NCBI GenBank assembly: GCA_964403415.1
Contig: CAYOFF010000001.1
Span: forward strand, 69,834 to 133,833
Length of the DNA stretch: 64,000 nt
Direction of reading: 5' to 3'
From: an uncultured Candidatus Peribacteria bacterium
Lineage (GTDB): Bacteria; Patescibacteriota; Gracilibacteria; Absconditabacterales; Absconditicoccaceae
In this document: positions 8,732 to 61,052 of the stretch, one piece after another
How the letters are laid out: every line of letters starts with the position of its first letter
Numbering within the stretch: the stretch's first letter is position 1
The notes under the pieces: generated by a model
The model's input: only the letters and a program-made list of their open reading frames with translations
Told to the model about the DNA's origin: nothing
The model's database searches: none
Translations under genes and position numbers: made by a program

Positions 8732-8830
8732 GTCCAAAAAAAGGTATAAATATGATGAAGTATTTTTGCAGGTATAAATCTACTTGTACCCATACAGTTT
8801 AGACGAACAACTTCAAGGGACATGTTTATT

Positions 8831-33223: not shown

Positions 33224-33420
33224 TGTTGTAAGCACACCTACTAAAATAAGACAGAATGTATCTAAAATAGCTCAAAATACAATATTTACTACAAAAGCTT
33301 CCTATATTTTGCGCCAGCCTTTCGATTGAGATTACTCTACAAAACAATACAGAGTATTAGAACGTGCAATATGTGTACGCGCAGTTTGTGTCTATAGACA
33401 TCCCTATCTGTGAGGTTATA

Positions 33421-33470
33421 GATATTTATACTTGCGAGAACACCAAGCCTGTAAAGGCATGGATATTTAT
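33421..33470 (+). promoter_or_regulatory. Copy B of the module (ends 15 nt before the preferred ALDH ATG)
   Basis: GATATTTATACTTGCGAGAACACCAAGCCTGTAAAGGCATGGATATTTAT. Identical to copy A at 42 of 50 positions. Confidence 0.5.
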
Positions 33471-37910: not shown

Positions 37911-38213
37911 CTACTGGGGAAGGGCTTCTTCGCATTGCTTGCATTTTTTTTTGTGTTTTTTTCATCGTTCGACAATTGTCGACGTTGAAAGTCCTGTTTC
38001 TTTGGATAAGGTTCTAGCGTCTGTATGCTGATGTACGTATCTGTATGCTATTTTTTGCTTGAACATCTCATCGTATGTATCTCTAGATCCGCCTACAGAA
38101 AAATGATCTCCACAATCTGTACATTTGTAACGCTGACCTCCGCTTGGTAGTTGCCCGTTTTTTTGGAGATGGTCTGAACGGCAGGAGATACATGCGAGCC
38201 CTTTGTTTTGCAT
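37911..38213 (-). CDS. Orphan IS1-InsA-like zinc-ribbon/HTH protein (100 aa)
   Basis: CISCRSDHLQKNGQLPSGGQRYKCTDCGDHF matches the InsA/COG3677 zinc-ribbon pattern, followed by an HTH-like ...ARTLSKETGLSTSTIVER. No transposase catalytic ORF or terminal inverted repeats were found nearby. Confidence 0.55.
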
Positions 38214-43785: not shown

Positions 43786-43910
43786 GTAACACGTGATCAA
43801 ACAAAATGTACCAAAAGTATAGGCAAATAGTGGGGTTTTGTCAAATTCTTTCTTCTAATATTCAGTCTTTCTCGGTTGCTTTTTTTGACAAAAACGTGAT
43901 AGATGTTCTC

Positions 43911-44918
43911 ATGACACTCTTTCAGTCACCTCTTCGAAAAACTATTTCACAGGAGATTTACAAAAAATCTCTTTTTGAGGTTTCTATTGAAGGAAAACCC
44001 TATCGAGGTGTGGCAAAATTCATGAAACGTTTTGGCGCTAGAACCGCTCGATATATGGTTCATGGGGTAGAATTCTCCAATACCGACGCATTTTCTCCCG
44101 ACCTAGCAGAAAGTATAGCTAGACTCAAAAGAGACCTCAATCATCACTGGTGAGATATCTTTGTGCAGTTAGGTATAACAAATATCCTAGACGCTCGCCC
44201 TACAGCCGACGTAAAAATAGCAGAAAATAGCCAAGAAATTACAAAAAAACACATGTATCAAGCATCTGATCTTCTTCAACGATATAGTATGCGCCCCTCT
44301 TGGAGGGAACATATGCCACAGGCCACTATTATTTTTGATCTTTCTCAGCCCGTACAATACATCTTGGATGGATTTTCTACTTCCGGAAAAAGATTTCTAA
44401 AAAAGGCCGAGAAAGAGGATCTTTCATTCGAGATTGCATCCAACCCAAGCGATCGAGAGGCATTCTATAGAATACGGTACACTATGTCATTTGACAAAGA
44501 CTTCAACATTATCTCACTTGAGACCTTCATGCAGCTTATGAACTATCTTGAGAGTACACATCAGGGAGCATTATTCCTCTGCAAGAAGAATTGAGCGATT
44601 GTCAGTGGCAGTCTCTGCCTCTTTTTGGGCGCATCTCTTATTTACCTCTACGGAGCCACAAATAGGCAATGGGGGGATATTTGATGACACTACTGGCTTA
44701 CTACCAAGATTATAGAATGGGCCCATGATCAGCATGTTTATACCAGTTTTGATCTTCTTGGGGTCTCAGCAGCACGAGATCATGAGCATCACCACCTTCA
44801 GTGAGTTACTAGATTTAAACAGGCGTTTGGAGGGACAACCGTCTCGTATGTTGGGAATTACGACATTATCTTCAACCCACTTCTCTATACGTGATTCTCC
44901 CGATGGAAGAAAAAATAA
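43911..44918 (+). CDS. FemAB-family peptidoglycan interpeptide-bridge aminoacyltransferase (FemX/MurM-like)
   Basis: MTLFQSPL..., ...LIYLYGATN..., L[G]VTRFKQAFGG. 335 aa from ATG 43911, TAA at 44916-44918. An upstream in-frame ATG at 43806 is possible but looks non-coding. Confidence 0.7.
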
Positions 44919-45028
44919 ATCCACATTGCGAACCGCCATCAACACGCCGCGCATACTATTCTTTATAAGACAATATATTATCTAATAATTCTATCACTCC
45001 GTGATAACGATAGGTTTGCGGATTTTAC

Positions 45029-45056
45029 TGTAAAAAAATTGTAAAAAAATTGTAAA
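45029..45056 (-). repeat. Three 11-bp-spaced copies of the TTTACA motif in inverted orientation
   Basis: TGTAAA starts at 45029, 45040 and 45051 (CTGTAAAAAAATTGTAAAAAAATTGTAAAAGG). Confidence 0.8.
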
Positions 45057-45180
45057 AGGATATTACGTGGTCATCCAAAGGGCCAAAAGGTCTCAAACCC
45101 CAAAAACAAAACCACCCAAACCACTCATCCATTGTCACCTACCAAGGGACAAGGAACGAAATAAATCTATGGAAGACGGT

Positions 45181-45231
45181 TGAGGGATAACAAAGATCTA
45201 TAAACAGCTTATATATCTTTGTTATCCCTCA
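45181..45231. repeat. Perfect 17-bp inverted repeat with a 17-nt spacer
   Basis: TGAGGGATAACAAAGAT (45181-45197) and ATCTTTGTTATCCCTCA (45215-45231). Confidence 0.9.
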
Positions 45232-45251
45232 CGGCAGGGTATCCTTGCATA

Positions 45252-45288
45252 AGTCTTCCAACTCAATTGGAAGACTGTACGCATGCGT
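45252..45288. repeat. 10-bp-stem hairpin followed by a 10-bp perfect palindrome
   Basis: AGTCTTCCAA-CTCAA-TTGGAAGACT (45252-45276), then ACGCATGCGT (45279-45288). Confidence 0.9.
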
Positions 45289-45500
45289 TACAGTCTTTTC
45301 TTTTTACACTTTTTTTACAAAGACTTTACAGCGCTTTACATATTTTTTACAGCTGCTTTACATTTTCTTTACAGTATTTTACATTTTTTATACACTCACT
45401 TTACAGTAACTTTACAAAAAAATATATACTTTACAGTATTTTTACAATTATTTTACATTTCTTTTACACCTCTTTACAGAAATTTTACAGCAGCTTTACA
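45287..45500 (+). repeat. Array of 18 TTTACA(G/A/T/C) motifs, plus one degenerate copy, phased at 10-11 bp
   Basis: Motif starts: 45303, 45314, 45325, 45335, 45346, 45357, 45368, 45378, 45389 (TATACA), 45400, 45411, 45430, 45441, 45452, 45463, 45473, 45484, 45495; GTTACA at about 45288. Spacings: 11,11,10,11,11,11,10,11,11,11,19,11,11,11,10,11,11. Confidence 0.9.
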
Positions 45501-45554
45501 ATAAAGCTTTTTATGTCCTCTCTTCCGCCCCTTCTTTGTATATACTTACTCTAT

Positions 45555-46655
45555 CTAATTGACTAATAACTCTTTCATAATTTTTGTATACGTCTTTTTT
45601 ATTGGATCTTGAGATGAGATATTTCGACTTTTTTTATACCCAATATGCTGTTCCAAAAATCTTTCTATACCCTTCTCCATATCATTGTTTTGCTCTATAC
45701 AAACATCTCAGTAGTGCACTTCGTACCGTCTTGCGTTTCACAGTTGGTGGTTTCCTCCTGTAAATGGTGTTGGAACAATGCAGGATTTTATGCCAAACAG
45801 TTTTTGTTCCGCCAGAGAGGTCACCCCTCCGCGCGTAATAGCTATGTCTGCATTTTTGTACAACATACCCATTTTTGCCGGTGAAAGATACTCATAAGTG
45901 AAAACATTTGGATATTCCGAAAAAACTTCTTTGTATTGCATATTTTTGGTCCCCAGTGTTACTATAAACTGGAAGTTGTGAGACCATACTCATGTCCTGT
46001 CCCATATTTTCTTCATAGCATCAAAGAGGGCGCCAGCTCATTGGGATCATCAAAGAACAAGTACAACTGTTTTATCTGTCTTTTTAGGTTCAACAAAATC
46101 TCTCGGCGGGTCCTCCCACAGTTGAAGAGAAAGTATTTGTCCCACATGCTCGCTCTTTCACTTATATTTCTCTCACTGGTGTTCAAATCATGTAAATACC
46201 TTTGATGCAAACGGATATAATAGGCGATTTGCCAAGCCTGGAAACAGATCGGACTCATGAATAACAACTTTTATTCAAAGCACCCATGCCGCAAAACACA
46301 CAGGAAATGAAACATATCCTCATTTACCGAAGACAACATCTATTTTATGTCTCCTGAGCTCCCATCGTGCGCATCCAATACCCATACCCACGTTTAACAT
46401 ATCTTTTATATTCTGCCACATCACCCTTAGTCCCCAGTATCTCCTTATTTTACCTACTGGAATCTCGACAAAATGCACCCATGAAATCTCCTCGCAAGCC
46501 TTTTGTTCTAGGGAGTTTCCCTCCCCAAACCAGTATATGTCATTGCATTTTGACATAAATTCATTAGAGGTATGCACGTAGTTGAGAAGTGAGACAAGCG
46601 GCGTTATATGCCCACCAGATCCTCATCAGGCTACCGCTATCGTTGTTTTTCTCAT
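45555..46655 (-). CDS. murG: UDP-GlcNAc:MurNAc-(pentapeptide)-PP-undecaprenol GlcNAc transferase
   Basis: IAVA[G][G]GSGGHITPL, [G]GYVSFPVCFAA, IHESDLFPGLANR, VLVL[G][G]SQ[G]AG, ITRGGVTSLAEQ, GGNHQL[G]NA. ATG 46655-46653, TAG 45557-45555, 366 aa. Confidence 0.9.
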
Positions 46656-46701: not shown

Positions 46702-46779
46702 GGTCGATTAGCTCAGCTGGTCGAGAGCGCCACATTGACATTGTGGAGGTCAGTGGTTCGAATCCACTATCGACCACCA
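46702..46779 (+). tRNA. tRNA-Val (anticodon GAC)
   Basis: GGTCGATTAGCTCAGCTGGTCGAGAGCGCCACATTGACATTGTGGAGGTCAGTGGTTCGAATCCACTATCGACCACCA. Full cloverleaf with encoded CCA. Confidence 0.9.
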
Positions 46780-46922: not shown

Positions 46923-47624
46923 ATGTGAGCCCTCTCTTCTATTTTTGATACCATTTTTCCTATACAGTGCGTTTTGTGCCAAGATTATGGGGCATATCTT
47001 TGTCGTAGCTGCAAAAAAACACTAGAAGTCCATCCGCCCCTCTGTCCCATTTGCTATCACCCCTCCCCTCATTACCAGACATGTTCTAAATGCATGCGTC
47101 AAAATCCCCTCAAATGATGCATTATAGGATTTTGATATTGATGAGCTATCAAAAAAATGATTCACCTCCTCAAATATAAGCATATCTCTACCGCCTCCAT
47201 CTTTCTTGCAAATCAACTTGCCTGGCATCTTCGCTCCCATCCTCTTATCTCTACCAAAGACACTCCTGTTCTTCTCTGCCCTATACCAACCCACCGACGA
47301 AAAGTTCTTCTCAAAAGAGGCTACGATCACATAAAACTTCTCACTAAGCAAATTTCTATAGATTGTACCATTCCAGAACAATTTCTCCTTACAAAATCTC
47401 GCTTTACTCGTAGCCAGGTAGGGCTTTCTAGGCAGCAAAGATATCATAATCTCTCCTGATCGTTTCAAATTACCTCTTGAACATCTCTCATTTGAAATGA
47501 GACAATTCTTCTTGTAGACGACCTCTTCACCAGTTGAGCAACACTTGTCACAGCAGCGAATACACTACTCGCTCGTCGACCTACTTTACAAATATGGGGC
47601 CTTGTTGTGAGTAGGCACATATAA
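46923..47624 (+). CDS. comFC: ComF-family protein (ComFC-type phosphoribosyltransferase with N-terminal zinc finger)
   Basis: CVLCQDYGAYLCRSC...CPICYHP...CSKC; PIPTHRRKVLLKRGYDH; SQVGLSRQQR; PRT motif ILLVDDLFTS[G]ATL. TAA at 47622-47624. Confidence 0.8.
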
Positions 47625-47695
47625 TAAAACTGAGGATTTTTTTCTTTCTATCAAGCCATTTGTACACTTTTGTCCATCTCTTGTCTACATCGTCT

Positions 47696-47744
47696 TTTAC
47701 AGTTTTTTTACAGAAATTTTACAGCGTTTTACAGTTTTTTTACA
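47696..47744 (+). repeat. Second phased TTTACA array (5 copies, same orientation as the large array)
   Basis: TTTACA starts at 47696, 47707, 47718, 47728 and 47739 (spacing 11,11,10,11). Degenerate TTGTACA/TTGTCCA/TTGTCTA copies at about 47660-47690 keep the same period. Confidence 0.85.
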
Positions 47745-47752
47745 CTTTAAGG

Positions 47753-48961
47753 TTACGCTATCACATTTGGCAACACTTGAATGACTACGGATTTGGAATA
47801 GAATCTTCCAACCAATGATACCATGTAATCGCTTGGCACAAGATGGATCTTGACACATTTTTGAAGGATTCTTCTAATAACACACAGTGATTGATATTTA
47901 CACCATAGTATTGGACGTCGATATCGCGATTTTTTTGATGCCCCGAAAAACCCTTCAAATCAAACCGGGTAATGCAATTGATCCTCTTCATATACTAGAG
48001 AGGGGAATGGATGAAATAATCAAAAATCATGATACATGATCATATGTATGCATTTTCTGCGTGTACCAACCCATAAGGGCAGCCAACCCAAATACCTATG
48101 AACACTGTTTCGGTAAATAATATCTGGTCTACAACGAACTATTTCGAGATATAGGCGCAGAGCCTCCCAAACATTACATACTGTTGCAAGCAGCCCAATC
48201 TTTCTCACACCCCCCCCATATAGATTCCCACCAAAGATACTTGCCTCGTATCCTTCCTCATTTAACATATCTTTTACTTCGTAGACATGACTTTCAATTC
48301 ATGCTATTTTTGTTGCATAGTCCGAAACGATAAGTATGCGATTAATATCATTAACAGATTTGGAAGCACTCAAAATGTTTGAAAAATTGGCTTTCCGCTC
48401 TTTACGCGAGTAGCGTAGAGCACGTTGTTGCGCTAGTTGGCGGTATCTCAGCGCCATGTCATCATCAAATGCTTCTAGAAAATATTTAATGGCTACAAAA
48501 AGCCTTTCTTCATGTGTAAGACCCTTATAGTTGTCGATAGAGCAGTGTTCGTCCAACAAAAACTGCTGTGTTCATCCTTTATTGAATCCCAACACAGGAA
48601 TACCATGCCGCAAAGCCTCTCCTGAGTTTAGGCCAAATGTTTCCAGGAATAACGATGGCATCAGTACTATATCAACCTTTTCACGCTTCATAAATGTAAA
48701 AACATCTCACTTTGGTTGCATACCGTAATACGAAACCTGGAATGATTTTGTCTCCATAATACATAATTCAAGTTCTTTTCTATATGATCAATCAGAGAAA
48801 AAACTGAAGCGGCAGCGATCTTCTCACTCCTTAGCAAGACGCTTTATGACTGAAAGCACTAGATCTATACCTTTTTCTTTTTCTAGTCTACTATAAAACA
48901 AAAAATGCACCTGTTTTCACATAAGCCTTAAGACGAGTAAAATCCAAGTACAAATTCTCAT
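47753..48961 (-). CDS. GT4/GT-B glycosyltransferase with swapped domain order: C-terminal Glycos_transf_1-type lobe first, N-terminal lobe second
   Basis: One frame, with TGA only, from ATG 48961 (alternative 48922) to TAA 47755-47753. The first half contains LEKEKGIDLVLSVIKRL...VDIVLMPSLFLETFGLNSGEALRHGIPVL (C-lobe signature). The second half begins NRILIVSDYATKIA[G]IESHVYEVKDMLNEEGYE (typical GT4 N-terminus) and ends ...KIHLVPSDYM.... Confidence 0.6.
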
Positions 48962-55019: not shown

Positions 55020-55445
55020 CTATGAAAAGAAGATAACTAGCACACTTACTAGTATTCATACCTTACAAATAAACATTAGGCGCTTATTTGAGGCTATTTT
55101 TGATGGCATTGGCGGTACAATACTTAGAAAATCACTTTTTATGGAGATAAGTGAGCATAAGAAGCGTATATCCTCATATATTCATGCTTGATGCGTCGTA
55201 TATACTGCAATCGGATCGTTTTTCCTTATATCATTCAAAAAAAGGTTTGTGTGAAAAAAAACTATATGCTGAGCCTTTTCGTCCTTATAAATTGCTGTGC
55301 GCGACTCAAAAAAGAGTTTATTTAGGATAGCGAATGCTTGTTCATACCGCATGTATACCTCTTTTTCTCCTATTTTTCTTGCCTCACTACTTCGTTTTAC
55401 GCCAAATAGACATACTATCAGACCTATTATACCTACCAGTAACAT
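55020..55445 (-). CDS. Hypothetical membrane protein (141 aa)
   Basis: MLLVGIIGLIVCLFGVKRS (N-terminal TM helix) and a C-terminal hydrophobic tail ILVSVLVIFFS. Extended through TGA to TAG 55022-55020. Confidence 0.45.
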
Positions 55446-55912
55446 GACGTATCTTCGGGAAGTAAAATCTTAATCACTTTAGGGGTTTTTTGTAGAATTG
55501 GAATGCTATTTCTTCGAAAAATAGGAATCTTTCTATTAATAAATACTTTCTTTAACGATTTTGATCATATTTTTTCTCATAACATTAGACCTCTAACCTC
55601 CCTATATTCACCTAGATTATCTTTTTTTATCCATGGCATACTGCCCACATCTCACCTATTTTCCCAAAACTTCTTTTGTGCTCTTATTAGATAACATTTT
55701 CCATGTGACTTAAAAAAATATATACCCTTTATGTATATATGTCATGATGTTTTCTTGTTTTCGAAAAACGAAGCAACAACCCCCAATTGCTTAGCATACC
55801 ATCAAAATTGACGATGTAATTCAAAAAGTACTGAATATACACCTCCTACTGATGTATCATGCAGTAATACATATTCCTCACAGTCTCATCGTATGGGAGA
55901 TGGCTGTAGAAC

Positions 55913-56689
55913 ACTATAAGACAGTAGCTTTTCCGTCGAATACTCCACATGAGATAAAGCGCTATATAATTCTAAAAATCATGCACCTAAATTTCACATG
56001 TATTCTACCTTATCTCATCCTTTGTTTCATGTGTCTTGTATACATTTTCTTATGTAATTCCTTAATGAAACACTACTATCTGTATTAGTCTTGTCTATGA
56101 CATATGGTATCTTGAGCCATTCTACGCAGTCCATGATAACATGTTTTTGGAGTCTCAGTAATGGACGATAGTGTATATATCATTTCTTTTTTTGGAACAT
56201 TCTCATGTTTTGCATTCACAAACGCGAAGCTCAACGCAAAAGATGTAATAGCGTTGTCTCAATACGGTCATCCAAATGATGTCATGTACAAATAACCGTA
56301 TTTTCTCCTAATCTTTTGGCAATAGACTCCAAAAAACAATACCTACTCTCCCTTAATCACGCCTCATTCTCTATTCATTTGAAGCGACACGCTCAAATAT
56401 ACTGCATTCCCTGAGCACAATTTCTTACTAGAAGCTCATCATCTCAGGCTTCTTCTCTCACGTTGTGATGATAGTGTACAACAAAAAGTTTTGATAGATC
56501 ACCACTTCTTTTCTCTACAAAACTTCTCAATATCCATAACAAAAACATACTATCTGCTCCACCAGAGACCGCAACTATAATATTTTTCTCTATAATTCTG
56601 TATGTATCACATAATTCCCATATCCTCTCACAGAGGTTGGATATGCTCAGATTGTTTTTTGTGGTGGTATCAGTATTATTTGTTATCAT
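55913..56689 (-). CDS. tilS: tRNA(Ile)-lysidine synthase (short form, PP-loop domain)
   Basis: PP-loop IIVAVSGGADSMFLL, VVHYHHNVRE, T[G]HHLDDRIETTLLHLLR[G], YRPLLRL, DKTNTD...LRNYIR. TAG at 55915-55913. Confidence 0.8.
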
Positions 56690-56708: not shown

Positions 56709-57194
56709 ATGAAAGATTATAAATTCTCTATAAAAGTCTCTGATCTTTTGCGCCATCCTTGAACAACTGATACCCTACAGTTACATAACAAATTTTCAAC
56801 AATTCTTCCACTAATTGAGGTCCCTTGAATACAAGCTATTGTAGAACTTGTATGATTAGACAACAAAACAGTGCTTCTTACCATCGTTTCTGCATCATGT
56901 ACTGTTTGATCTACCTGCGATAGGTGTGGCACAGAATTTCAAGAAACCCTTTCTGTAAGCTCAATTATCGTGAAATGCTTTTTGGAAGAGGAAAGTAGTC
57001 AAAATTCTTTTGAATGAGATGATATTATTGTCATATCCAAAAAAGATGAAACCATAGATATTGAGCATGTTATTGTTGAGGCTTTAGTTCTCCAAAAAAG
57101 TGTTAAAAGTTTGTGTAGTGAGTGTCAAGCTGTGTCTACTAATGATAGTGATGATGAAGCCGAAACCACGTGAGTAATAAAACGAGTAGAGTAA
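56709..57194 (+). CDS. YceD/DUF177 family protein
   Basis: 161 aa with paired Cys motifs TCDRCGTEF and LCSECQA and an acidic tail. TAA at 57192-57194. Confidence 0.6.
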
Positions 57195-60968: not shown

Positions 60969-60985
60969 GTGTATTTGCTTGTAGT

Positions 60986-61036
60986 ATATATTTATACCTG
61001 CGTGAATATTCCTTCTGTAAGGGTGTAAATATTTAT
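60986..61036 (+). promoter_or_regulatory. Copy C of the module (ends 16 nt before the comEC ATG)
   Basis: ATATATTTATACCTGCGTGAATATTCCTTCTGTAAGGGTGTAAATATTTAT, then ATTGGAGAAATTTCAG-ATG. Confidence 0.5.
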
Positions 61037-61052
61037 ATTGGAGAAATTTCAG

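What the first reader, a model, noticed from the sequence alone, without database searches (positions are those of the whole stretch)
44919..45554. Convergent 636-bp gap filled with helically phased 11-bp TTTACA iterons, an orientation switch and perfect palindromes
Between the 3' ends of the Fem-like gene and murG there is no plausible ORF. The repeat period of 11 nt is not a multiple of 3, so the two track ORFs in this gap are artefacts. The gap contains, in order:
- Three TGTAAA copies at 11-bp spacing (45029-45056).
- A perfect 17-bp inverted repeat, TGAGGGATAACAAAGAT/ATCTTTGTTATCCCTCA.
- A 10-bp-stem hairpin and the palindrome ACGCATGCGT.
- Eighteen or nineteen TTTACA copies in the opposite orientation, spaced 10-11 bp (about 10.8 on average) over 210 bp, alternating TTTACAG with TTTACAT/A, which gives an effective 21-22-bp unit.

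This puts every motif on one face of the helix. That geometry is typical of protein-coated iteron arrays such as ParR-type centromeres and plasmid or phage origin iterons, and of strongly curved DNA. TTATCCCTC inside the big palindrome is a near DnaA-box. Flanking genes converge on this point (mostly plus-strand on the left, minus-strand on the right), which would also fit a replication terminus or fork-trap type locus. I know of no described element with this layout in CPR genomes.
Basis: seen in the sequence. Interest (0 to 1): 0.85.

Follow-up and report, generated by a model that had tools for sequence, protein, structure and literature searches.

The report
Phased regulator-site arrays flanking a small RNA
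The gap holds a previously undescribed small structured RNA gene flanked by very long, helically phased rows of a 6-base motif that matches the inferred binding site of this bacterial group's OmpR-type response regulator; it is not a replication origin, terminus or DnaA site.

Summary
The organism is an SR1/Gracilibacteria-type bacterium that reads TGA as a sense codon.

The "palindromes" are helices of a roughly 230-nt RNA gene on the + strand that ends in an intrinsic terminator. This is supported by compensatory changes in relatives, and Rfam has no match.

The arrays keep the B-DNA helical phase (best period 10.62 bp) and are the most curved DNA in the 64 kb. Across relatives the hexamer and its phase are conserved, while spacers and copy number are not.

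TTACA-N6-TTACA is also found just upstream of a clade-wide OmpR-family regulator-kinase operon and its neighbouring genes, 9 nt before a -10 box. I therefore read the arrays as oversized regulator binding platforms: 18 sites against at most 8 described. They sit at gene 3' ends rather than in promoters, and probably act as a barrier or sink and as the RNA's operator.

GC skew excludes a terminus or origin at this position. The regulator gene itself was not found in this lineage's available DNA. Interest is moderate to high.

The parts
43806..44918 (+). FemAB-family peptidyltransferase gene (left flank), translated with code 25
   Evidence: Code-25 ORF. The orthologue in L001 carries PF02388 FemAB.
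45001..45028 (+). Near-invariant block GTGATAACGATAGGTTTGCGGATTTTAC; function unknown (operator or promoter element?)
   Evidence: Invariant in window, L001, L003 and L004. It gains no covarying pairs. A recognisable copy, GTGATATC-N8-AGCGGAAAATAC, also lies in L124 21 nt after the fem stop.
45029..45056 (+). Three TGTAAA units at 11-bp spacing, inverted relative to array 1. They overlap the putative -35 (TTGTAA, 45039-45044) of the RNA gene and end 4 nt before the putative -10 (TATTAC, 45061-45066).
   Evidence: Conserved as exactly 3 units in L001, L003, L004 and L139. Promoter hexamers were read from the sequence and are invariant in the alignment. The transcription start is inferred.
45067..45302 (+). 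Structured small RNA gene of about 230 nt (5' end inferred). Variable A/C-rich 5' part; P1 hairpin 45128-45155 with invariant ACCA loop; P2 long hairpin 45181-45231; P3 45234-45248; terminator stem 45270-45298 followed by a U-run.
   Evidence: RNAalifold gives 54 pairs, 18 with compensatory changes. Pair counts: 93.6% paired against 43-54% for slid controls, 16 double-change pairs against 1-5, 0 of 500 shuffles reach the observed values. Single-sequence fold z = -6.9. G-U pairs exist only on the + strand reading. No Rfam hit. A covariance-model homologue lies in the L124 murG-fem gap.
45303..45500 (+). Array 1: 18 units of TTTACA (17 exact plus 1 TATACA). Best period 10.62 bp. Read on the minus strand the unit consensus is TGTAAAR + N4.
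   Evidence: Most curved segment of the window. Present with 17, 16 and 9 units in L001/L139, L003 and L004, with unrelated spacers.
45555..46655 (-). murG. Its stop codon lies 54 nt from array 1 (15 nt in L003, 1 nt in L004).
   Evidence: Homologues carry PF03033 and PF04101. Distances.
46702..46779 (+). tRNA-Val(GAC)
46923..47624 (+). comF-like phosphoribosyltransferase gene
   Evidence: Translation. Orthologues carry PF18912 or PF00156.
47696..47749 (+). Array 2: 5 TTTACA units in the same orientation as array 1, ending 3 nt from the stop codon of the minus-strand glycosyltransferase gene.
   Evidence: Conserved in L001, L139, L002 (cut by the contig end) and L004 (4 units). Highest local curvature in the window.
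47753..48961 (-). Family-1 glycosyltransferase gene (g36)
   Evidence: The orthologue in L001 carries PF00534.

Best explanation
The gap contains two different things.

1. A conserved, independently terminated structured small RNA gene on the + strand (about 45067-45302).

2. Three clusters of a 6-bp half-site (TTTACA, or TGTAAA on the other strand) repeated head to tail once per helical turn. They bracket the RNA gene and the murG / tRNA-Val / comF segment.

I propose that the half-sites are bound by the OmpR/PhoB-family response regulator that is conserved across Gracilibacteria and Absconditabacteria. One winged-helix domain would sit on each unit, on one face of intrinsically curved DNA. 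The 18-unit and 5-unit arrays would then load a long cooperative protein row.

The arrays lack a -10 box at the activator distance, and they sit directly after the stop codons of murG and the glycosyltransferase gene, between convergent transcription units. They therefore most likely act as non-promoter platforms. Two roles fit: a signal-dependent barrier that keeps convergent transcription apart, taking the place of the terminator seen in a relative, and/or a high-capacity sink for the regulator.

The 3-unit cluster is inverted and overlaps the RNA gene's -35/-10, so it would act as the operator that represses the RNA when the regulator is bound.

Shown here: the anatomy, the helical phase, the predicted curvature, the conservation pattern, the RNA structure, and the motif's association with the regulator's own operon in relatives.

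Inferred: that the regulator binds here, that this organism encodes it, and the barrier, sink or repression roles.
For: Helical phase:
- Phase is locked to 10.55-10.72 bp in three lineages, reached by different mixes of 9, 10 and 11-bp steps. That argues for a DNA-level, face-of-helix function.

Conservation pattern:
- The hexamer is constant and position 7 is a purine in 54 of 55 units, while spacers and copy number change freely. The selection is on the motif and its phase, not on a recent duplication.

Match to a known site type:
- TGTAAA-N5-TGTAAA is an exact instance of the WalR/VicR consensus TGTWAH-N5-TGTWAH (PMC4168254).
- OmpR-family regulators bind head-to-tail repeats at about 11 bp centre to centre, with cooperative extension along extra repeats (PMC6222199, PMC3798270, PMC2275107).

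Link to the clade's regulator:
- A 218-aa OmpR-family regulator forms a conserved orthologue group in Gracilibacteria and Absconditabacteria and is always followed by a histidine kinase gene.
- In 4 of 5 loci an exact TTACA-N6-TTACA pair sits on the coding strand just upstream of its start codon, the last pair starting 53-61 bp before it. Per-locus chance is 0.003-0.044.
- All 10 independent sites in those loci are co-oriented with a downstream gene and are followed after 9 nt (8 in one case) by a TAnnnT -10. This is the PhoB-type layout.

Position at 3' ends:
- The arrays abut stop codons.
- In L124 the same RNA ends in a bidirectional terminator shared with murG, and there is no array.

Curvature:
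- The arrays are curvature outliers. The end-to-end ratio is 0.34 against 0.90 +/- 0.07 for the window.
Against: - No response regulator or kinase gene lies in the 64-kb window (tblastn; Pfam scans of most window proteins). None is in any locus held for the array-bearing lineage, so the trans factor is unverified here.
- The arrays do not have the regulon promoter layout, because no conserved -10 follows them.
- The base after TTACA is mostly T in the relatives' regulon sites (read from the sequences) but G or A in the arrays.
- The motif is short and resembles the -35 hexamer. Phased 4-copy TGTAAA runs occur in many phyla, so the motif alone is not diagnostic.
- The regulator's closest solved relatives are DrrD and BasR/PmrA, not WalR.
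- The proposed roles (barrier, sink, operator) are not tested by any data available here.
Confidence: 0.5

Rival explanations
1. The arrays are binding platforms for a different sequence-specific DNA-binding protein. Candidates are a ribbon-helix-helix ParR/ParG-type centromere protein or a lineage-specific nucleoid protein. The locus would then be a chromosomal centromere-like or architectural site near the replication origin.
For: - Short direct repeats at one per helical turn on curved DNA are the geometry of parC-type centromeres (established knowledge).
- There are two arrays about 2.2 kb apart.
- The locus lies about 9-11 kb from the GC-skew minimum and gene-orientation switch at about 56.7 kb. 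In L124 the array lies about 1.4 kb from the equivalent TilS/YceD junction.
Against: - No parA, parM, parR or parB-like gene was found among the window proteins scanned. Known par centromeres sit next to their operon.
- The array position is not conserved in more distant relatives.
- The motif already has a specific candidate binder in the clade's regulator.
Confidence: 0.17
2. The arrays act mainly through intrinsic DNA curvature (phased T-tracts) and their -35-like hexamers, without a dedicated regulator. They could serve as curved upstream or downstream elements, as RNA-polymerase-binding promoter-like clusters, or as structural boundaries.
For: - Extreme predicted curvature.
- TT-dinucleotide power at 10.6 bp exceeds every background window.
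- TTTACA-N17/18-TACAnT combinations score as sigma-70-like sites.
- In L124 the array runs into a consensus TTGACA-N17-TATACT promoter.
- TTGACA variants occur inside the L003 array.
Against: - Curvature alone does not need an invariant ACA.
- Ordinary promoters in this genome use TTGACA/TTGCAA, and TTTACA is not enriched in the other 27 intergenic regions.
- No conserved -10 or downstream gene follows the window arrays.
Confidence: 0.15
3. The repeats work at the RNA level. UGUAAA repeats in the 3' untranslated regions of murG, the glycosyltransferase gene and fem (or in the small RNA's 5' part) would bind an RNA-binding protein or cause termination.
For: All three clusters read TGTAAA in the sense of the gene immediately upstream. 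Arrays 1 and 2 start 1-54 nt after stop codons, and no canonical terminator was found for those genes.
Against: - Phase is locked at 10.6 bp over 200 bp, achieved by different 9/10/11 mixes in different lineages. RNA recognition gives no reason for this.
- In L124 the array has the opposite orientation relative to its upstream gene.
- The array RNA is not C-rich as a Rho loading site would be.
Confidence: 0.06
4. The locus is a replication origin, terminus or fork trap, or plasmid/phage-type iterons.
For: It is the largest non-coding stretch in the window (636 bp), has repeats on one helical face, and lies between convergent genes.
Against: - GC skew does not change sign or slope at 45 kb.
- The DnaA-box-like sequence is an RNA helix arm and is not conserved.
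- No rep or dnaA gene was found.
- There is no plasmid or phage similarity.
- Chromosomal synteny is conserved.
- The unit is a 6-bp motif rather than a 17-22-bp iteron.
Confidence: 0.03

Closest known systems
Multi-repeat operators of OmpR/PhoB-family response regulators: WalR/VicR TGTWAH-N5-TGTWAH; ArcA sites with 2-5 repeats; Streptomyces PhoP operators with up to 6 repeat units (8 reported in S. natalensis); E. coli ugp with 7
   Same: - Hexamer half-sites as head-to-tail direct repeats at about 11 bp centre to centre, on one helical face.
- The hexamer fits the WalR consensus exactly.
- Cooperative extension along extra repeats is documented for this family (PMC4168254, PMC3798270, PMC2275107).
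   Different: - 18 consecutive near-perfect units, against at most 8 described.
- Placed at gene 3' ends between convergent genes, with no -10 at the activator distance.
- Present as three clusters around one RNA gene.
- The cognate regulator has not been found in this lineage's DNA. By sequence, the clade's regulator is nearest to DrrD and BasR/PmrA rather than WalR.
parC-type plasmid centromeres (R1 ParR; pB171 ParB 6-bp repeats)
   Same: Arrays of short direct repeats phased with the helix, sometimes in two blocks, coated cooperatively by a small DNA-binding protein (from established knowledge).
   Different: - No adjacent par operon.
- A chromosomal, syntenic housekeeping locus.
- The array position varies between lineages.
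- The motif coincides with a response-regulator site.
Titration or decoy loci such as E. coli datA, and plasmid incA iteron arrays
   Same: Clusters of binding sites away from the regulated promoter, able to soak up a regulator (from established knowledge).
   Different: They bind different proteins (DnaA, Rep) and have different unit sizes. No evidence here bears on titration.
Regulator-controlled small RNAs, for example the OmpR-dependent OmrA/B (from established knowledge)
   Same: A free-standing small RNA gene with its own terminator, whose promoter carries OmpR-family-type repeats.
   Different: There is no sequence or structure relationship (no Rfam hit). The sites here are inverted and overlap the -35/-10, so repression is expected. 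The RNA is confined to a narrow uncultured lineage.

Membership tests
OmpR/PhoB-family response-regulator operator | Hexameric half-sites arranged as head-to-tail direct repeats | tested here: met
   All units within a cluster share one orientation.
OmpR/PhoB-family response-regulator operator | Centre-to-centre spacing of about one helical turn (10-11 bp) | tested here: met
   Best period 10.62 bp with resultant length 0.95; relatives give 10.55-10.97.
OmpR/PhoB-family response-regulator operator | Match to a half-site consensus established for a family member | tested here: met
   TGTAAA-N5-TGTAAA fits TGTWAH-N5-TGTWAH. There are 16 exact matches in the window against 0.65 expected (consensus from PMC4168254).
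OmpR/PhoB-family response-regulator operator | The same motif is linked to a cognate regulator in the clade (autoregulatory site) | tested here: met
   TTACA-N6-TTACA lies upstream of the regulator-kinase operon in L025, L212, L214 and L215, with a degenerate version in L213. All 10 sites are followed after 8-9 nt by a -10.
OmpR/PhoB-family response-regulator operator | The cognate regulator is encoded by this organism | not testable with these tools
   It is not in the 64-kb window or in the loci held for this lineage, and the whole genome is not available.
OmpR/PhoB-family response-regulator operator | Promoter placement (site replaces the -35, with a -10 about 9-10 nt downstream) | tested here: not met
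   No conserved -10 follows array 1, array 2 or the triple. The triple is inverted over the RNA promoter.
OmpR/PhoB-family response-regulator operator | Demonstrated protein binding | not testable with these tools
   Needs EMSA, footprinting or DAP-seq.
ParR/parC-type centromere | Adjacent partition operon (ParA/ParM ATPase plus a small DNA-binding adaptor) | tested here: not met
   No such domains were found in the window proteins scanned or among the precomputed Pfam hits for genes in relatives' loci. Not every window protein was scanned.
ParR/parC-type centromere | Helically phased direct repeats | tested here: met
Replication origin (DnaA boxes, AT-rich unwinding element, or iterons with a rep gene) | Conserved DnaA boxes or an initiator gene, plus a GC-skew switch | tested here: not met
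   Skew is continuous through 45 kb. The DnaA-like 9-mer lies inside an RNA helix and is changed in L004. No dnaA or rep gene was found among the proteins scanned.
Replication terminus or fork trap | Cumulative GC-skew maximum at the site | tested here: not met
   Cumulative skew falls monotonically from 1 to about 56 kb.
Intrinsically curved DNA (phased A/T tracts) | Predicted curvature far above the genomic background | tested here: met
   In the wedge model, array 1 windows rank 1-3 of 6380, and array 2 has the maximum local bend. The parameters were recalled from memory.
Any Rfam RNA family (for the core RNA) | Covariance-model match | tested here: not met
   No hit at the gathering score or at E <= 10 other than spurious microRNA hairpin matches.
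Free-standing bacterial small RNA gene | Conserved secondary structure with covariation, and an intrinsic terminator on a defined strand | tested here: met
   G-U pairs and the U-run exist only on the + strand.
Free-standing bacterial small RNA gene | Evidence of transcription and mapped ends | not testable with these tools
   No expression data are available.

The most novel reading that the evidence does not exclude
The arrays are a new kind of signal-controlled nucleoprotein element. A response regulator polymerises along 5 to 18 phased half-sites on pre-bent DNA at the 3' ends of convergent genes. There it replaces intrinsic terminators as a switchable transcription barrier, and/or acts as a built-in sponge that sets the regulator's threshold. 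In doing so it also brackets and controls a lineage-specific small RNA and the murG / tRNA-Val / comF segment.
Probability: 0.25. Interest if true: 0.8.

Novelty: new variant of a known kind. Interest (0 to 1): 0.6.

Why it matters
Little is known about how gene regulation works in the uncultured, genome-reduced SR1/Gracilibacteria group.

This locus offers a concrete, testable regulatory circuit. Its parts are a clade-wide two-component regulator, its inferred DNA site, a new structured small RNA, and binding-site arrays more than twice as long as any described for this regulator family, placed where terminators normally sit.

If regulator binding is confirmed, it would show that response regulators can be used as long DNA-coating barriers or sinks and not only as promoter switches. 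It would also give a cis-element signature (TTACA at 10.6-bp phase) for mapping the regulon in metagenomes.

Tried and rejected
- **Known RNA families.** Rfam at gathering and permissive thresholds on the window, L003 and L004 found only tRNAs and spurious microRNA-hairpin hits.
- **More RNA homologues.** A metagenome scan with the RNA loop motif gave 84 hits, but only L139, which is near-identical to the window, is real. The rest are chance matches in coding DNA.
- **Genome-collection scan for the 4-unit phased pattern.** It did not recover this lineage, but it did give L025.
- **Antisense-promoter idea.** The idea was that the arrays fire into fem, murG and the glycosyltransferase gene. Rejected because no conserved -10 sits at the activator distance. 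The one formal match overlaps a stop codon, and the one inside array 1 is not conserved.
- **Sigma-54 and other readings of the conserved left block.** The spacing does not fit (read from the sequence), so the block stays unexplained.
- **Origin or terminus.** Rejected on GC skew.
- **DnaA box.** Rejected on covariation.
- **Mobile element.** No plasmid or phage similarity.
- **Regulator, Par or DnaA proteins in the window.** None found among the proteins scanned.
- **Tracing unnamed regulator homologues to L001's assembly.** No accession data were returned.
- **nhmmer for the RNA in distant relatives.** It found nothing. Only the covariance model recovered L124.
Full report
**Context**

Under the standard bacterial code the window has only short ORFs. 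Reading TGA as a sense codon triples the coding content, from 14.5k to 45.7k amino acids in ORFs of at least 100 aa. MurG homologues are from Absconditabacteria (SR1) and Gracilibacteria, and the nearest named ones are only about 40% identical.

The code-25 gene map around the finding is as follows:
- fem-like gene, 43806-44918 (+)
- a 636-bp gap
- murG, 45555-46655 (-)
- tRNA-Val, 46702-46779 (+)
- comF-like gene, 46923-47624 (+)
- a 128-bp gap
- family-1 glycosyltransferase gene, 47753-48961 (-)

**Observation**

- There are 17 exact TTTACA copies at 45303-45500 with 10/11-bp steps. One TATACA brings the array to 18 units.
- Three TGTAAA copies lie at 45029-45056.
- The large inverted repeat (45181-45231) and the 10-bp hairpin (45252-45276) are confirmed. 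ACGCATGCGT lies at 45279-45288.
- TGTAAA-N5-TGTAAA with up to 1 mismatch occurs 19 times against 0.76 expected, and no shuffle reaches that count.

New findings:
- A second array of 5 units lies at 47696-47749, in the same orientation, in the next convergent gap.
- Only these two of 29 intergenic regions carry the motif.

**The non-repeat core is an RNA gene**

Orthologous fem-murG gaps were recovered from relatives whose MurG is 93% (L001), 81% (L002, cut by the contig end), 58% (L003) and 56% (L004) identical. A near-identical metagenome contig, L139, was also found.

In all of them the core keeps its hairpins through compensatory changes. Examples are TTGTC/GACAA, TTGCC/GGCAA and TTATC/GATAA beneath an invariant ACCA loop, and both arms of the long hairpin change together in L004.
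- RNAalifold gives 54 pairs, 18 with double changes.
- For the named structure, 93.6% of cells pair, against 43-54% when the partners are slid. Sixteen pairs have changes on both sides against 1-5, and 0 of 500 shuffles reach the observed values.
- The single sequence folds at z = -6.9.
- The last helix (45270-45298) is followed by a U-run, and the G-U pairs exist only on the + strand. The gene is therefore a + strand RNA of about 230 nt with an intrinsic terminator.
- Rfam has no match.

A covariance model of P1-P3 finds a homologue in the murG-fem gap of L124 (MurG 45% identity). It scores 25.3 bits, with E between 8.6e-5 and 5e-4 depending on the search space, and keeps the same hairpin and ACCA loop. 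There the RNA ends in a hairpin that serves as a bidirectional terminator shared with murG, and no array is present.

So the RNA is older than the arrays.

**The arrays are a DNA-level, helix-phased element**

- The period that best keeps all 18 units in phase is 10.62 bp, with resultant length 0.95 against 0.35 at 11.0.
- L003 (16 units) gives 10.72, L124 gives 10.55, and L004 (9 units) gives 10.97.
- The window and L003 reach this average by mixing 10s and 11s, whereas L124 mixes 9s and 11s. That points to selection on helical phase itself.
- In a logo of 55 units the consensus is TGTAAAR plus four free positions. Spacers are unrelated between species, and copy number is 17-18, 16 and 9.
- A wedge-model calculation, with parameters recalled from memory, makes array 1 the most curved 200 bp of the window. 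Its end-to-end ratio is 0.34 against 0.90 +/- 0.07. Array 2 has the highest local bend, and the triple is above the 99th percentile.

An RNA-level role does not explain this phase locking.

**Not an origin, terminus or mobile element**

- GC skew stays negative from 1 to about 56 kb and turns positive only at about 56-57 kb. There TilS (-) and YceD (+) diverge. Nothing changes at 45 kb.
- No DnaA, Rep, ParA/B or ribbon-helix-helix protein was detected among the window proteins scanned.
- The gap has no plasmid or phage similarity.

**Link to a response regulator**

TGTAAA-N5-TGTAAA is an exact instance of the WalR/VicR consensus TGTWAH-N5-TGTWAH (PMC4168254). OmpR-family regulators bind head-to-tail repeats (PMC6222199).

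A pattern scan of species-representative genomes returned many unrelated arrays, mostly perfect tandem 11-mers. It also returned one Gracilibacteria locus, L025. There, five TTTACA units sit upstream of an OmpR-family regulator gene.

That regulator defines a conserved orthologue group across Gracilibacteria and Absconditabacteria, and it is always followed by a histidine kinase gene.
- In L212, L214, L215 and L025 an exact TTACA-N6-TTACA pair lies on the coding strand just upstream of the start codon, the last pair starting 53-61 bp before it. Per-locus chance is 0.003-0.044. L213 has a degenerate copy.
- All ten independent sites in these loci are co-oriented with a downstream gene. Each is followed after 9 nt (8 in one case) by a TAnnnT -10.
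- In that layout the sites replace the -35 element, as at PhoB-activated promoters.

This makes TTACA at 11-bp phase the inferred site of the clade's regulator. By sequence the regulator is a generic family member, nearest to DrrD and BasR/PmrA.

**How the window's clusters differ from regulon promoters**

- None is followed by a conserved -10 at the activator distance. After array 1 comes TTTATG. After the triple, read on the minus strand, comes the invariant GCAAAC. The TACGCT after array 2 overlaps the glycosyltransferase stop codon. An internal site at 45401 is not conserved. The antisense-promoter idea is therefore rejected.
- Arrays 1 and 2 begin 1-54 nt after the stop codons of the minus-strand genes murG and the glycosyltransferase, between convergent units. 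This is where L124 has a terminator.
- The triple is inverted relative to array 1. It covers a putative TTGTAA-N16-TATTAC promoter of the RNA, which is invariant in the alignment. That is a repressor-like position.
- In L124 a 12+3-unit array lies elsewhere, after TilS, and runs into a consensus TTGACA-N17-TATACT promoter of an operon syntenic with window genes g44-g40. In the window that operon has a plain promoter. Arrays are therefore gained and placed in a lineage-specific way.

**Interpretation**

The best-supported reading is that these are oversized binding platforms for the OmpR-family regulator. There are 18 near-perfect units here. Described operators have 2-5 for ArcA (PMC3798270), up to 6-8 for Streptomyces PhoP, and 7 at E. 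coli ugp (PMC2275107). The platforms sit on pre-bent DNA and are used outside promoters. Two roles fit: a switchable barrier between convergent genes and/or a sink. The triple would serve as the RNA's operator.

Weak points:
- The regulator gene is not in the window or in this lineage's available DNA.
- The arrays' flanking-base preferences differ somewhat from the regulon sites.
- The motif is short and resembles the -35 hexamer.
- No functional data exist.

Rivals, in order of remaining weight, are another DNA-binding protein (centromere-like or architectural), curvature or RNA-polymerase-based action, an RNA-level role, and an origin or terminus, which is essentially excluded.

**Unexplained**

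The 28-bp block GTGATAACGATAGGTTTGCGGATTTTAC (45001-45028) is invariant in the lineage and recognisable in L124. It shows no covariation and fits no promoter model that I tried.

**Verdict**

I classify it as a new variant of a known kind, accompanied by a new small RNA. Interest is 0.6.

Noticed in passing
whole window: TGA is a sense codon (code 4/25). ORF content triples when it is read through. MurG homologues place the organism near Absconditabacteria/Gracilibacteria, but at only about 40% identity to named genomes.
   Followed up: partly
window 45001-45028; L124 11322-11295 (minus strand): A 28-bp block, GTGATA(A/T)C-N8-(T/A)GCGGA-N3-TAC, is invariant in the lineage and also present in L124, which has no array at this locus. 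It shows no covariation and no convincing promoter reading. A GTGATAAC-like motif also sits just upstream of the -10 TATACT in L124 (about 2866) and L125 (about 4180).
   Followed up: partly
window 33414-33470 (+), 60980-61045 (+), 27067-27010 (-); partial copy near 8777 (-): A recurrent leader-like motif of about 55 nt, GATATTTATACYTGCGnGAAYA...CTGTAARG...ATATTTAT, lies directly upstream of the start codons of three unrelated genes (an aldehyde-dehydrogenase-like gene, ComEC, and a UvrB-like gene). It is not in Rfam. It could be a regulatory RNA or an operator.
   Followed up: no
window about 56.7 kb (TilS 55433-56689 minus / YceD 56709-57194 plus): The cumulative GC-skew minimum coincides with divergent gene orientation, which looks like a replication origin. 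However, the two genes are only 19 bp apart and no dnaA lies nearby.
   Followed up: partly
L124 2730-2915: In a relative whose MurG is 45% identical, a 12+3-unit TTTACA array lies between TilS and an operon (a 63-aa protein, a homologue of window g44, two small membrane proteins, and ComM). It ends in a consensus TTGACA-N17-TATACT promoter, and a TTTACAAT unit abuts the start codon, which may indicate a leaderless mRNA.
   Followed up: partly
L212 11951; L215 11933, 13064, 14207; L025 1708, 865: The inferred regulon of the clade's OmpR-family regulator includes the gene just downstream of the kinase (a 981-aa prepilin-type N_methyl protein in L212) and an efflux adaptor protein in L215. Each has TTACA-N6-TTACA-N9 followed by a -10.
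   Followed up: partly
L125 3870-4230; L126 3380-3395 (minus strand): L125 has a structured, terminator-ended region downstream of murG, on murG's strand, followed by a 2-unit TTTACA site. L126 has a 2-unit site at the 3' end of ComM pointing antisense. Both are followed by GTTAGCAT.
   Followed up: no
window 47640-47695: The sequence between the comF stop and array 2 (AAGCCATTTGTACAC...CTTGTCTACATCGTC) is highly conserved in L001, L139 and L002, more than expected for a spacer.
   Followed up: no
window 37911-38213 (-): A 100-aa protein with an InsA-like zinc ribbon plus a helix-turn-helix domain. It may be an IS1-type remnant or a small regulator.
   Followed up: no
L050, L051, L053, L063 (one Verrucomicrobiota genome); L022, L074 (Campylobacter): Other phyla also carry phased TTTACA/TGTAAA arrays of 6-10 units with variable spacers at several loci per genome. 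Long phased arrays of this hexamer may therefore be a wider, undescribed phenomenon.
   Followed up: no
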